This document shows, piece by piece, positions 21,130-22,331 of a stretch of 36,393 nucleotides of DNA. Every line of letters starts with the position of its first letter. Positions within the stretch are counted from its first letter, which is position 1. The notes beneath the pieces were generated by a model, which was not told the origin of the DNA, did not search any database, and saw nothing but the letters and a program-made list of their open reading frames with translations. The translations under genes were made by a program, and so were the position numbers. This stretch comes from a virus (taxonomy: Duplodnaviria; Heunggongvirae; Uroviricota; Caudoviricetes), in IMG/VR virus record IMGVR_UViG_2534682108_000013, positions 1-36,393 of that record; one strand, written 5' to 3'.

Positions 21130-21153
21130 CGATGCGCATAAAAAAGCCCCGCT
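21130..21153 (-). terminator. Rho-independent terminator downstream of AT-rich moron
   Basis: Minus-strand hairpin GCCTCGC-AATA-GCGGGGC followed by a T run; near-identical copy at 22087..22109. Confidence 0.5.
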
Positions 21154-21185
21154 ATTGCGAGGCTACGATTTAGAACTAGCGGATT

Positions 21186-21704
21186 TTAGGACGCAGAAAC
21201 AAAGTAAAGATCTACTTTAATTAGTTCATCTAAATGCCAGATGAAATAATCTTGATTTCTCTTCCCTTGAGTATATTCATTATATGCCGCCATAATATTG
21301 CCCCATAATTTTTCAACATCTGTATCTTTAAATAATTTTTCTGTAGCAAACCAATATCTAGCACACATTTGCATAGAATCTTCTAACTTTTCAAATTCTT
21401 TCGCCAGACCTTTAAAAGCGGTTATTTGCTCAACTGGAAGCTTAGTTTTTCTCAGATCATTTTCACTATAAAGAAGATTTCTTCCGACCCTAAGTTGTAC
21501 TGGATCAATTTCATCAGGTTGCCAAAGAGTCACAAACTTAAGTTCTAACAATGCCATTTTGAAATCTTTCTTAGATTTCAAAACCTCTTGGTGTCTCCAA
21601 GTGTTTAAAGCAGTTTTTGCAAAAAATAAGGTTATCATTGACACAATGGCAGAAACAGTTGTCCCTATCATTGAAAACAAGGCAATTTTATCAGCTGTTG
21701 ACAT
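21186..21704 (-). CDS. Membrane-anchored protein of unknown function (AT-rich moron; candidate exclusion/defence gene)
   Basis: GGAGG RBS before the Met at 21704; one N-terminal hydrophobic helix then a soluble domain; strongly AT-rich relative to neighbours. Confidence 0.55.
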   Translation of the reverse strand: MSTADKIALFSMIGTTVSAIVSMITLFFAKTALNTWRHQEVLKSKKDFKMALLELKFVTLWQPDEIDPVQLRVGRNLLYSENDLRKTKLPVEQITAFKGLAKEFEKLEDSMQMCARYWFATEKLFKDTDVEKLWGNIMAAYNEYTQGKRNQDYFIWHLDELIKVDLYFVSAS

Positions 21705-21733
21705 GATCCCTCCATAAGTGACGGGATACTTTA

Positions 21734-21772
21734 GCATTATCACAGGCATTCAGTGAATGCCTGTGATAATGC
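21734..21772. repeat. Perfect 39-bp palindrome (19-bp arms, 1-nt centre)
   Basis: GCATTATCACAGGCATTCA-G-TGAATGCCTGTGATAATGC read directly; between the stop of ORF 21774..22067 and the moron start. Confidence 0.95.
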
Positions 21773-21773
21773 C

Positions 21774-22067
21774 TTACTCTTCAGCCGCCGCACCTTCCGG
21801 CAACTCAACACAACCAAAGACAGGCATACCCGGCGAACGATCATCTTCCACCGCTACCAGTTGCGATTCGGAATACCAGCGCTCAGTCGCACATTTATTG
21901 GCGGCCTGGTAGTAAATAAAGTACTGGTTCTCACCTGTCACATGCTGGGAGCGGGCCTGTACCTCGCCGAACTCATCACTAATGCGCAAGTTCACTAGTT
22001 GCCCAAGACAGAATTTAAAGTCTTTTGCTACAGGAAAGATTGCAGCGCCGTTTTGTTCTTTTTCCAT
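21774..22067 (-). CDS. Hypothetical phage protein
   Basis: 97-aa ORF with phage-like composition between the spanins and the moron. Confidence 0.45.
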   Translation of the reverse strand: MEKEQNGAAIFPVAKDFKFCLGQLVNLRISDEFGEVQARSQHVTGENQYFIYYQAANKCATERWYSESQLVAVEDDRSPGMPVFGCVELPEGAAAEE

Positions 22068-22086
22068 TATTCACTCTCTTATTGTT

Positions 22087-22109
22087 AAAAAGCCCCGCTA
22101 ATGTGAGGC
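22087..22109 (-). terminator. Terminator-like hairpin + T run overlapping the o-spanin stop
   Basis: AAAAAGCCCCGCTAATGTGAGGCT on the plus strand; imperfect direct repeat of 21130..21153. Confidence 0.4.
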
Positions 22110-22331
22110 TACAGGATTGTTATTTGGGCAGTTGCGCTGAACAGACCTGTTGTGCCCCAATATGTCCCGCTTCGTCTGCTTATCCAGCACGGTAATATCG
22201 TGCTCAGTGAGATAGATGATGCTTACCCAGTCACAGGCCGTGTCCGTTACTTCAGGTTTTGCGGGTAAATTTTTCGCGCAACTCACGGTCAACATCGTCA
22301 TCAGGAAGATGATTAACAGTCTGCTGTACAT
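22098..22331 (-). CDS. Candidate o-spanin (Rz1-like lipoprotein)
   Basis: Signal peptide with lipobox-like LTVSC; ORF starts inside the 3' end of the i-spanin candidate in another frame. Confidence 0.4.
   Translation of the reverse strand: MYSRLLIIFLMTMLTVSCAKNLPAKPEVTDTACDWVSIIYLTEHDITVLDKQTKRDILGHNRSVQRNCPNNNPVASH

What the first reader, a model, noticed from the sequence alone, without database searches (positions are those of the whole stretch)
21130..22110. AT-rich membrane-protein moron cassette bounded by two near-identical terminator-like direct repeats and preceded by a perfect 39-bp palindrome
Seen: plus-strand sequence AAAAAGCCCCGCTATTGCGAGGCTAC (21131..) and AAAAAGCCCCGCTAATGTGAGGCTAC (22086..) flank a ~0.95-kb segment holding a 97-aa ORF and a strongly AT-rich 172-aa ORF with one N-terminal TM helix; a perfect palindrome (21734..21772) sits exactly between the two ORFs. 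Established: morons are typically promoter-gene-terminator units inserted between lysis and packaging genes, and single TM-anchored proteins in this hotspot are often superinfection-exclusion or abortive-infection factors. Inference: the repeats may mark a recombination-delivered cassette, and the palindrome is an operator or RNA processing site controlling the moron independently of late transcription.
Basis: partly seen in the sequence, partly recalled or inferred. Interest (0 to 1): 0.65.

Follow-up and report, generated by a model that had tools for sequence, protein, structure and literature searches.

The report
Prophage accessory-gene slot with generic hairpins
This stretch is the usual "extra gene" slot between the lysis and DNA-packaging genes of a phiP27-like E. 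coli prophage: it holds a rare, AT-rich, membrane-anchored gene of unknown function, and the repeats and palindrome around it are common phage hairpin elements, not marks of a special cassette.

Summary
All genes read on the minus strand. The two 26-nt repeats (24/26 identical) are copies of one intrinsic terminator, T. Its 22-nt core occurs exactly in over 120 viral contigs with many unrelated flanks, and phi80 and HK639 records annotate the element as a terminator. The 39-bp palindrome is a perfected copy of a second widespread element, hairpin H. H follows the stop codons of at least 27 unrelated gene families and shows compensatory changes and sense-strand G·U pairs, which points to an RNA structure. 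The interval is three modules, not one cassette: T1 + 97-aa gene + H; H + 172-aa gene + T2; and T2 + HNH/terminase. They overlap exactly at H and T2. The 172-aa gene fits a moron: 33% GC, in 1 of 5426 E. coli genomes, always placed after the lysis genes, with a conserved promoter-like motif and its own terminator. Its product is an N-terminal membrane anchor plus a four-helix bundle with no known relatives. I infer a role in phage-phage conflict, but this is untested. Overall ordinary, with modest added interest from T and H.

The parts
22087..22112 (-). T1: upstream copy of the generic lambdoid intrinsic terminator T. It overlaps the last codons of Rz1 and lies 20 nt before the 97-aa gene. 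The stem is weakened (C.A mismatch) and the U-tract has 5 U.
   Evidence: The same element sits 5' of 97-aa homologs in 28 of the 29 loci of the window-type set L021-L049 (5 of them with a second copy downstream; one further locus has only a downstream copy); none of the 80 phiP27-type loci L050-L129 has it.
21774..22067 (-). 97-aa gene, phiP27 L33 family (phrog_1935). Function unknown, predicted beta-rich. There is no room for its own promoter, so it is presumably expressed by Q-dependent late transcription.
   Evidence: No Pfam, NCBIfam, PADLOC or PDB match.
21734..21772 (-). H: perfect 39-nt palindrome. It is one copy of a widespread intercistronic RNA hairpin family (consensus GCATTACAG-CAGGCATTCACTGAGTGCCTG-TGATAATGC). 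It forms the overlap between module 1 and module 2.
   Evidence: (87.4% of cells paired, 9/19 pairs compensatory, many sense-strand G.U). No Rfam family.
21728..21757 (-). Candidate sigma-70 promoter of the 172-aa gene (inferred): -35-like TTCACT at 21757-21752 in the hairpin loop, an 18-nt spacer, then an extended -10-like TGcTAAAGT at 21736-21728. An alternative -10 is TGtGATAAT at 21744-21736, inside the right arm.
   Evidence: The motif TGCTAAAkT / TGTTATwwT is conserved 23-30 nt before the start codon in homolog loci down to 23% protein identity. In L016 it belongs to a 10/12 promoter match with TG. The window site fell below the scan threshold.
21186..21704 (-). 172-aa AT-rich gene (phrog_6169; WP_149005511.1). 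The product has an N-terminal transmembrane helix and a probably cytoplasmic four-helix bundle. It is the accessory (moron) cargo. Shine-Dalgarno GGAGGG lies at 21713-21708.
   Evidence: and for context 34, 37, 38, 39, 70, 73, 111-114.
21141..21166 (-). T2: downstream copy of terminator T with the consensus sequence, an 8-bp stem and 6 U. It ends the 172-aa gene module.
   Evidence: The same element is annotated 'terminator' in HK639, and a variant is so annotated in phi80.
21115..21140 (-). Conserved 'tail' after T (TTATGCGCATCGCACGCGCTCATCAA...), running into the HNH ribosome-binding site. Together with T2 it forms the overlap between module 2 and module 3.
   Evidence: (about 50-bp block found on its own in about 48 E. 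coli genomes).
20763..21101 (-). HNH endonuclease gene, first gene of the P27-type packaging module (right flank of the slot).
22098..22331 (-). Rz1-type spanin gene, last gene of the lysis cassette (left flank of the slot).

Best explanation
The interval is the accessory-gene slot between the lysis cassette and the HNH/terminase packaging module of a phiP27-like lambdoid prophage (E. coli O157:H16 Res13-Lact-PEA12-26). It reads on the minus strand and consists of three independently assorting modules joined at two generic hairpin elements.

Modules:
- Module 1 is T1, the 97-aa L33-family gene and hairpin H (22110-21730).
- Module 2 is H, a short leader, the AT-rich 172-aa gene, T2 and its tail (21769-21115).
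- Module 3 is T2/tail, HNH and terS (21163 downward).

T is an ordinary intrinsic terminator that is very widespread after lysis and accessory genes of enterobacterial lambdoid phages. H is an equally widespread intercistronic hairpin that acts at the RNA level on the sense strand.

Inferred workings:
- After induction, Q-modified RNA polymerase from pR' reads through T1, H and T2 to reach the packaging and structural genes.
- Without Q, the terminators insulate the slot.
- H most likely protects or processes the 3' end of the upstream cistron.
- Because T and H are conserved while their flanks are not, they also serve as short homology patches where modules are exchanged. This explains why the joints fall exactly on them, and why two T copies end up flanking the slot.

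The 172-aa gene is a true moron. It has foreign composition, its own extended -10-type promoter partly overlapping the end of H, and its own terminator T2. It encodes an inner-membrane-anchored cytoplasmic four-helix bundle. I infer it is made in the lysogen and acts in phage-phage conflict (superinfection exclusion or abortive infection).
For: Shown:
- Identity and gene order.
- Module blocks with overlaps at H and T2. L021 matches 22110-21730 at 95.8%. L250 matches 21769-21115 at 95.6% inside a different prophage. L255, L254 and L257 match from 21163, 21132 and 21142 downward at 93-96%.
It is annotated as a terminator in HK639, and a variant is so annotated in phi80. Other loci also carry two T copies around the 97-aa homolog plus another cargo.
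- H: present after 97-aa homologs in 102 of the 104 loci with an unambiguous read (14 more are ambiguous; 118 screened in all). 87.4% of cells are paired, against at most 49% when the partners are slid. 9 of 19 pairs show compensatory change, and 0 of 500 shuffles reach the observed covariation score. Sense-strand G.U pairs are common.
- The H core is exact in more than 120 contigs. Only 5 of 123 occurrences follow a 97-aa homolog, and at least 27 unrelated upstream ORF families are represented.
- H has an orientation bias: 81 of 118 copies have a co-oriented ORF ending upstream, against 19 with a convergent one; the median gap to the next start codon is 31 nt.
- The 172-aa gene has GC 0.33 against 0.49. 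All relatives checked are AT-rich too.
- The gene's DNA is in 1 of 5426 complete E. coli genomes and in no species-representative genome.
- In all 12 distinct prophage contexts examined it lies after the lysis genes and before packaging, with different holin, endolysin and terminase types.
- A -10-like motif is conserved upstream.
- The AF2 model has pLDDT 84.5 and shows a TM helix plus a 4-helix bundle.

Literature:
- Intra-late-operon terminators are known, and their roles are called unknown (PMC8022706).
- The region upstream of the packaging module holds lysogen-expressed defence genes in phi80 (PMC11364771).
Against: - No transcription data. Promoter, termination and read-through are inferred from sequence only.
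- The window's candidate promoter is weak (8/12 plus TG) and fell below the scan threshold.
- The 172-aa protein has no hit in PADLOC, Pfam, NCBIfam or PDB sequence searches, and only generic helical-bundle fold matches. The defence role therefore rests only on analogy and position.
- Its strict position next to lysis genes could instead mean a lysis-related role.
- The very high sequence conservation of H, beyond what pairing alone needs, hints at sequence-specific recognition that this explanation does not account for.
Confidence: 0.65

Rival explanations
1. One reading: the ~0.95-kb segment with both ORFs is one cassette, delivered by recombination between the two terminator-like direct repeats.
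For: Two 24/26-identical repeats flank the segment. A few other loci also have two T copies around the 97-aa homolog plus another cargo.
Against: - The two genes assort independently. The 97-aa gene occurs without the 172-aa gene in over 100 loci.
- The 172-aa gene occurs without the 97-aa gene in L250/L251, L016-L018, L019, L020 and L446-L450.
- Homology blocks break at H, not only at T.
- In Atlantibacter the pair is not flanked by two T copies.
- T is generic.
- The longest exact run shared by the two copies is only 14 nt.
Confidence: 0.07
2. The palindrome is mainly a DNA-level control element, a promoter/operator. A dimeric regulator binds the inverted repeat and gates a promoter that drives whatever cargo lies downstream. 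H plus T would then form a portable promoter-terminator expression slot.
For: - The outer arms (CATTA...TAATG) and TGnGATAAT stay conserved in sequence while the inner stem covaries.
- 92 of 118 H copies are followed within 120 nt by a co-oriented ORF, at a median of 31 nt.
- H, or its loop plus right arm, stays attached to the 172-aa gene in three contexts that lack the 97-aa gene (L250/251, L019, L020).
- A perfect palindrome is typical of operators.
Against: - Frequent G.U pairs on the sense strand would be A.C mismatches on the other strand. They are also irrelevant to binding of double-stranded DNA, so they argue for an RNA structure.
- Three independent routes restore pairing at the two usually mismatched positions: a left-arm change in the window, a different left-arm change in L121, and a right-arm change in the CTGTAATG group.
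- There is no good -35 at proper spacing for the in-arm -10.
- H also precedes structural late genes and convergent genes, where a promoter makes no sense.
Confidence: 0.2
3. The 172-aa protein is not a lysogen-expressed defence factor but a late-expressed auxiliary lysis protein, for example a holin/antiholin modulator or lysis-timing factor, co-transcribed with the lysis cassette.
For: In 12 distinct prophage contexts the gene lies co-oriented after the lysis genes, directly behind the spanin gene or with one small gene between. This holds down to about 23% protein identity and across three different holin/endolysin types. It is an inner-membrane protein like holins and i-spanins.
Against: - It is very rare and patchy: 1 of 5426 E. 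coli genomes, none in 185,579 species-representative genomes.
- Base composition is foreign in every member.
- It has its own conserved -10-like motif and terminator.
- A weak homolog in phage CobraSix sits between terL and portal, away from the lysis genes.
- The same slot holds clearly non-lysis cargo in relatives: an Acb2/Tad1-like gene, a Clp-fold protease, a Zn-ribbon gene and rha.
Confidence: 0.2
4. T and H are dedicated sites of a site-specific, hairpin-recognising cassette-exchange system (integron attC-like or IS200/IS605-like) that loads cargo genes into the slot.
For: - The slot has a gene-hairpin-gene-hairpin architecture.
- Cargo junctions fall within a few nt of the hairpin ends.
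- Outer arms are conserved, the inner stem is variable, and there is a 2-nt internal mismatch, as in folded attC sites.
Against: - No recombinase gene lies next to the slot in the window or in any annotated relative.
- The arms do not match the attC core (GTTRRRY).
- Sense-strand G.U pairs and co-orientation with transcription fit an RNA role.
- Ordinary homologous recombination through 40-50-bp shared patches is enough to explain the joints.
Confidence: 0.05

Closest known systems
Morons of lambdoid phages (HK97/HK022 concept of Juhala, Hendrix et al. 2000; cited from my own knowledge)
   Same: An extra gene sits between two genes that are adjacent in relatives. Its base composition deviates, it has a putative promoter of its own upstream and an intrinsic terminator downstream, and it lies inside the late operon.
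   Different: Expression in the lysogen is not shown. The promoter candidate is weak and overlaps a generic hairpin. The terminator is not private to the gene but a copy of a very common element.
Intra-late-operon terminators of P22-like and lambdoid phages (phage L analysis, PMC8022706; terminators annotated in the HK639 and phi80 GenBank records)
   Same: Rho-independent terminators lie inside an operon that has a single Q-dependent promoter. T (or a close variant) is itself annotated as a terminator after the lysis genes of HK639 and phi80.
   Different: Here the same element is present twice, 946 nt apart. The upstream copy is degenerate.
phi80 tai/ati immunity locus upstream of the packaging module (PMC11364771)
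   Same: It occupies the same genomic slot, between the lysis genes and cos/terminase. It holds a lysogen-expressed defence gene and a late-expressed partner. phi80 carries both T (after Rz) and H (after rha) in that slot.
   Different: No sequence similarity between the 172-aa family and phi80 gp52, or between the 97-aa family and phi80 ORF x171.8. I did not confirm that these two phi80 ORFs are tai and ati. tai is described as part of a noncontiguous operon, and phi80 gp52 is annotated on the opposite strand; the 172-aa gene is co-oriented with the late operon.
Conserved 'boundary/linker' sequences at mosaic joints of lambdoid phages (modular theory; HK620 and Sf6 comparisons; cited from my own knowledge)
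   Same: Short conserved sequences are shared by otherwise unrelated neighbouring modules, and homology breaks exactly at them.
   Different: Here both linkers are structured RNA-type elements, a terminator and a hairpin. Their prevalence is documented on hundreds of contigs. Whether they raise recombination rates is untested.
Intercistronic mRNA hairpins and RNase III sites (lambda sib, T7 R sites, REP-type stabilisers; cited from my own knowledge)
   Same: A long stem with a small internal mismatch lies directly after a stop codon inside a polycistronic phage transcript and is conserved as a structure.
   Different: No processing or stabilisation data exist. There is no Rfam family. Sequence conservation is unusually high across unrelated contexts.

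Membership tests
Moron (172-aa gene) | Absent from close relatives; inserted between genes that are adjacent in related phages | tested here: met
   phiP27 has L33 followed directly by HNH. The gene's DNA is in 1 of 5426 E. coli genomes. Relatives carry other cargo in the same slot.
Moron (172-aa gene) | Base composition different from the surrounding phage genome | tested here: met
   GC 0.331 against 0.49-0.54 in the flanks. The same holds in all homolog loci checked.
Moron (172-aa gene) | Own promoter upstream | tested here: inconclusive
   A TGCTAAAkT / TGTTATwwT motif is conserved 23-30 nt before the start codon, and L016 has a 10/12 promoter match. The window site scores only 8/12 plus TG and was missed by the scan. 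There are no transcript data.
Moron (172-aa gene) | Own terminator downstream | tested here: met
   T2 has an 8-bp GC-rich stem and 6 U and lies 19 nt after the stop codon. This is by sequence only.
Moron (172-aa gene) | Expressed from the repressed prophage | not testable with these tools
   Needs RNA or protein data from the lysogen.
Rho-independent terminator (T1, T2) | GC-rich hairpin immediately followed by a U-tract on the transcribed strand | tested here: met
   T2 meets it fully. T1 meets it only weakly, with a C.A mismatch and 5 U followed by AAC. Variants keep pairing, for example U.G to U-A in GCGAGGC forms. Termination activity was not tested.
   The exact 22-mer is in more than 120 viral contigs with many unrelated flanks, and a roughly 50-bp block is in about 48 E. 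coli genomes.
Integron attC-type site (H) | Conserved R''/R' core (RYYYAAC / GTTRRRY) and a neighbouring tyrosine recombinase | tested here: not met
   The H arms are GCATTAC / GATAATGC. No recombinase is annotated in or next to the slot.
Known anti-phage defence families (172-aa and 97-aa proteins) | Significant match to a PADLOC, Pfam or NCBIfam model or to a solved structure of a defence protein | tested here: not met
Curated RNA families (H, T) | Match at the Rfam gathering threshold | tested here: not met
   No family reaches gathering score in the window. Only chance-level hits appear in the region.

The most novel reading that the evidence does not exclude
T and H together form a conserved 'punctuation' system of the lambdoid accessory slot. 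Genes would be packaged as hairpin-delimited units that are swapped between unrelated phages through these 25-50-bp elements. H would supply a portable promoter or processing signal and T the stop. The 172-aa family would be a new inner-membrane anti-phage (exclusion or abortive-infection) protein loaded into this slot.
Probability: 0.15. Interest if true: 0.65.

Novelty: new member of a known kind. Interest (0 to 1): 0.35.

Why it matters
For this locus, the result mainly removes a false lead: neither the repeats nor the palindrome is special to the cassette.

Two by-products may be useful.
- T and H are very common, highly conserved, and in the case of H apparently undescribed hairpin elements. 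They mark module joints in the lysis-to-packaging slot of enterobacterial temperate phages. They could serve as landmarks for finding accessory, defence and counter-defence cargo, and for studying how phage mosaics form.
- The 172-aa family is a rare, AT-rich, membrane-anchored moron with conserved placement and no known function. That makes it a reasonable candidate for a plaque-assay screen.

Tried and rejected
- Function of the 97-aa protein: no family or PDB hit. The AF2 model is too poor (pLDDT 54.7) for a fold search, so none was run.
- Acb2/Tad1 relation of the 97-aa protein: rejected.
- Relation to the phi80 slot proteins gp52 and ORF x171.8, and to mEp237 gp62: rejected.
- Rfam: no family for H or T.
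- Literature search for the literal T and H sequences: no paper found. 'phiP27 L33': no paper found.
- Genome-representative scans for the 172-aa family: nothing found. The 27-member alignment was too diverse for pattern design.
- H as an ordinary terminator: considered and rejected. In the window it is followed by GCUAAAG rather than a U-tract, and only a minority of copies have a U-tract.
- H as an antisense-strand element: considered and rejected because of the G.U pattern and the orientation bias.
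Full report
**Source and layout.** The window is 100% identical to the chromosome of E. coli O157:H16 strain Res13-Lact-PEA12-26 (NZ_CP062876.1) and lies in a lambdoid prophage. All relevant genes read on the minus strand, in this order:
- Q antiterminator, 24175-24585, followed by a tR'-like terminator at 24102-24077
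- two holins
- GH19 endolysin, 22529-23155
- Rz and Rz1 spanins
- a 97-aa ORF, 21774-22067
- a 172-aa ORF, 21186-21704
- an HNH endonuclease, 20763-21101
- P27-family small terminase, large terminase and portal

The finding therefore lies in the gap between the lysis cassette and the packaging module of a phiP27-like phage.

**Check of the observation.**
- The direct repeat is real: 21141-21166 and 22087-22112, 24/26 identical, with none expected by chance.
- On the coding strand both copies are intrinsic-terminator hairpins. The downstream copy T2 (GCCUCGC-AAUA-GCGGGGC, then 6 U) folds at -14.1 kcal/mol. The upstream copy T1 carries a G-to-A change that creates a C.A mismatch, has 5 U, and folds at -8.7 kcal/mol.
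- The palindrome is exactly as described: 21734-21772, 19+1+19, perfect, with an RNA fold of -31.2 kcal/mol and z = -8.5.
- The 172-aa ORF has GC 0.331 against 0.49 for the window, and one hydrophobic segment at residues 7-29.

**The repeats are a generic terminator.**
- A 49-bp block, T2 plus about 25 nt after it, matches phages HK639, mEp237, CobraSix and RothC/D and nothing else in them. In HK639 it is annotated 'terminator'. The same block occurs on its own in about 48 complete E. coli genomes.
Many unrelated sequences lie upstream, mostly ends of various spanin genes. Many unrelated genes lie downstream.
- phi80 has a close variant right after Rz, annotated 'putative rightward transcription terminator'.
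- Several other prophages carry two T copies in the same slot around the 97-aa homolog plus a different cargo gene: L021, L031/32/35/48 and L164/L227.
- In Atlantibacter the same gene pair has T only upstream.

**The palindrome is a generic intercistronic hairpin (H).**
- I first collected 118 loci with 97-aa homologs, including phiP27 L33. Of 104 with an unambiguous read, 102 have the hairpin directly after the stop codon; the other 14 were ambiguous (early stop or frameshift). Similarity to the window ends within a few nt after it.
- An alignment of 35 distinct versions gives 87.4% paired cells, against 30-49% when the partners are slid. Compensatory changes occur at 9 of 19 pairs, and 0 of 500 shuffles reach the observed covariation score.
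- Two positions (pairs 7 and 8) are usually mismatched. Pairing is restored by a left-arm change in the window, a different left-arm change in L121, and a right-arm change in a large subgroup. The window's 'perfect' palindrome is thus one perfected variant.
- G.U pairs on the sense strand are common: 28 of 35 sequences at one pair. They would be A.C mismatches on the other strand, so the structure is selected in the sense RNA.
- H is not tied to the 97-aa gene. Only 5 of 123 occurrences follow a 97-aa homolog. It lies 8-30 nt after the stop codons of at least 27 unrelated ORF families, including spanins, rha and many small ORFs.
- 81 of 118 copies have a co-oriented ORF ending just upstream, against 19 with a convergent ORF. 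92 of 118 have a co-oriented ORF starting within 120 nt, at a median of 31 nt.
- H occurs in phi80 right after rha, and also in mEp390, ZF40, ST64B, phiP27 and many Klebsiella prophages.
- It matches no Rfam family, and I found no paper containing its sequence.

**Module structure.** BLAST blocks against relatives define three units.
- L021 matches window 22110-21730 (T1, 97-aa gene, H) at 95.8%.
- L250 is a different prophage, with a 115-aa ORF upstream and a lambda-type Nu1 downstream. It matches 21769-21115 (H, 172-aa gene, T2, tail) at 95.6%.
- L255, L254 and L257 match from 21163, 21132 and 21142 down through HNH and terS at 93-96%.

The units overlap at H (about 40 bp) and at T2 plus tail (about 49 bp). 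L255 has H, a 54-aa Zn-ribbon gene, T and then the same HNH: the same slot with different cargo. phiP27 itself runs from L33 through H straight into HNH. Seven E. coli genomes hold a Clp-fold serine protease there, ending in the same T plus tail. The slot is therefore a hotspot with cargo exchange, and the joints coincide with the two conserved hairpin elements. That T and H act as homology patches for this exchange is an inference.

**The 172-aa gene.**
- The family is small and patchy. A word-based search found 7 clusters at 90% identity. An exhaustive profile search of 1.84 billion proteins found 54 representatives. It belongs to phrog_6169, 'unknown function'.
- None was found in 185,579 species-representative genomes.
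- I examined 12 distinct prophage contexts, in E. coli, Atlantibacter, Klebsiella, Kluyvera, Serratia and Enterobacter isolates plus unassigned metagenome contigs, reaching down to about 23% protein identity. In all of them the gene is co-oriented with the late operon, after the lysis genes and before packaging. This holds across three holin/endolysin types and three packaging types.
- One weak homolog in phage CobraSix sits between terL and portal.
- Every member checked is AT-rich relative to its phage: 0.33-0.39 against 0.48-0.55.
- A TGCTAAAkT / TGTTATwwT motif, an extended -10 type, is conserved 23-30 nt before the start codon across these loci. In Klebsiella L016 it is part of a 10/12 sigma-70 match.
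- In the window the TG comes from the last bases of the palindrome, and a 4/6 -35 (TTCACT) lies in the hairpin loop with an 18-nt spacer. This reading is mine, and the site is weak.
- In three contexts that lack the 97-aa gene (L250/251, L019, L020), H or its loop plus right arm still precedes the gene. This fits either promoter use or simple hitch-hiking.
- The AF2 model (pLDDT 84.5) shows a transmembrane helix continuing into a long helix, followed by a four-helix bundle. Positive charges after the TM segment suggest a cytoplasmic bundle.

**The 97-aa gene.** It is common in enterobacterial prophages and has no annotation, family or solved relative. Only a low-confidence beta-rich model was obtained. 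T1 leaves about 20 nt before its start codon, so it has no room for its own promoter. It is most simply a late gene read by Q-modified polymerase (inference). It is unrelated to the Acb2/Tad1-like gene that takes its place in the Klebsiella loci.

**How it most likely works.**
- Shown: the anatomy, the module boundaries, the generic nature of T and H, the RNA-level conservation of H, and the accessory character of the 172-aa gene.
- Inferred from established lambdoid biology: late transcription from pR' becomes terminator-resistant through Q. It therefore passes T1, H and T2. In the lysogen the same terminators confine any transcription that starts in the slot. The phage L analysis notes that such intra-operon terminators are common and their roles unsettled (PMC8022706).
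- Inferred: H stabilises or processes the 3' end of the upstream cistron. The 172-aa gene is transcribed in the lysogen from its own weak promoter and stops at T2.
- Inferred by analogy: its product acts at the inner membrane in phage-phage conflict. The analogy rests on the slot's known content in phi80, where a lysogen-expressed defence gene (tai) and a late counter-defence gene (ati) sit upstream of the packaging module (PMC11364771). I put this functional guess at about 0.4, a lysis-accessory role at about 0.2, and the rest unknown.

**Verdict.** This is not one repeat-bounded cassette with a private operator. It is an ordinary moron slot whose punctuation, terminator T and hairpin H, is shared by hundreds of phages. 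The locus is a new member of a known kind. The modest added value is two things. First, H appears to be an undescribed, widely conserved intercistronic RNA hairpin, and together with T it marks mosaic joints. Second, the 172-aa family is a rare, uncharacterised, membrane-anchored moron with conserved placement.

Noticed in passing
window 23156-23310: A 155-bp AT-rich gap (GC about 0.40) lies between the endolysin and holin genes. It contains a terminator-like hairpin on the plus strand, antisense to the late operon, at 23277-23306.
   Followed up: no
window 24077-24102 (-): A tR'-like terminator lies just downstream of the Q gene. Its stem (CCTCGCC...GGCGGGG) resembles that of T. There is a chance-level isrJ Rfam hit here.
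   Followed up: no
window 21115-21140 (-); also L002, L004, L005, L020, L250 and many of L130-L249: A conserved 'tail' follows T: TTATGCGCATCGCACGCGCaCATCAA..., often continuing as GAGAGTCTTTCAGTnGTGAGCCTGGG. It precedes rha, HNH or terS genes in many otherwise unrelated phages. Its function is unknown.
   Followed up: partly
L016 3531-3812 (also L017, L018): In Klebsiella prophages the gene just upstream of the 172-aa homolog is a 93-aa protein with the Acb2_Tad1_hairpin domain (PF24729), the anti-CBASS/anti-Thoeris sponge family. The slot therefore also carries counter-defence cargo.
   Followed up: partly
L448 1025-2186 (-): An Enterobacter prophage that carries a 172-aa family member also has a KwaA-domain gene (PF28043) plus a 212-aa partner, a Kiwa-like defence pair, inserted in reverse orientation between Q and the holin gene.
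   Followed up: no
L002 3073-3918 (E. coli 2017-02-2CC and six other genomes): An SDH-family Clp-fold serine protease gene occupies the same lysis-packaging slot and ends with the same T plus tail as the window's 172-aa gene.
   Followed up: partly
L444 (phi80) 2501-2540 and 1812-1834: phi80 carries H immediately after rha and before the convergent gene gp52, which lies in the region described as the tai/ati immunity locus. A T variant after Rz is annotated as a terminator. H itself is unannotated.
   Followed up: partly
L250 2051-2398: In the prophage that shares the H + 172-aa gene + T2 module, the 97-aa gene is replaced by an unrelated 115-aa ORF with no NCBIfam match.
   Followed up: no
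L008 3453-4006 (Salmonella phage 118970_sal3): The 172-aa homolog in this phage is split into two annotated ORFs (gp071 and gp072). It is probably a frameshifted pseudogene, at the same position between the spanin and HNH genes.
   Followed up: no
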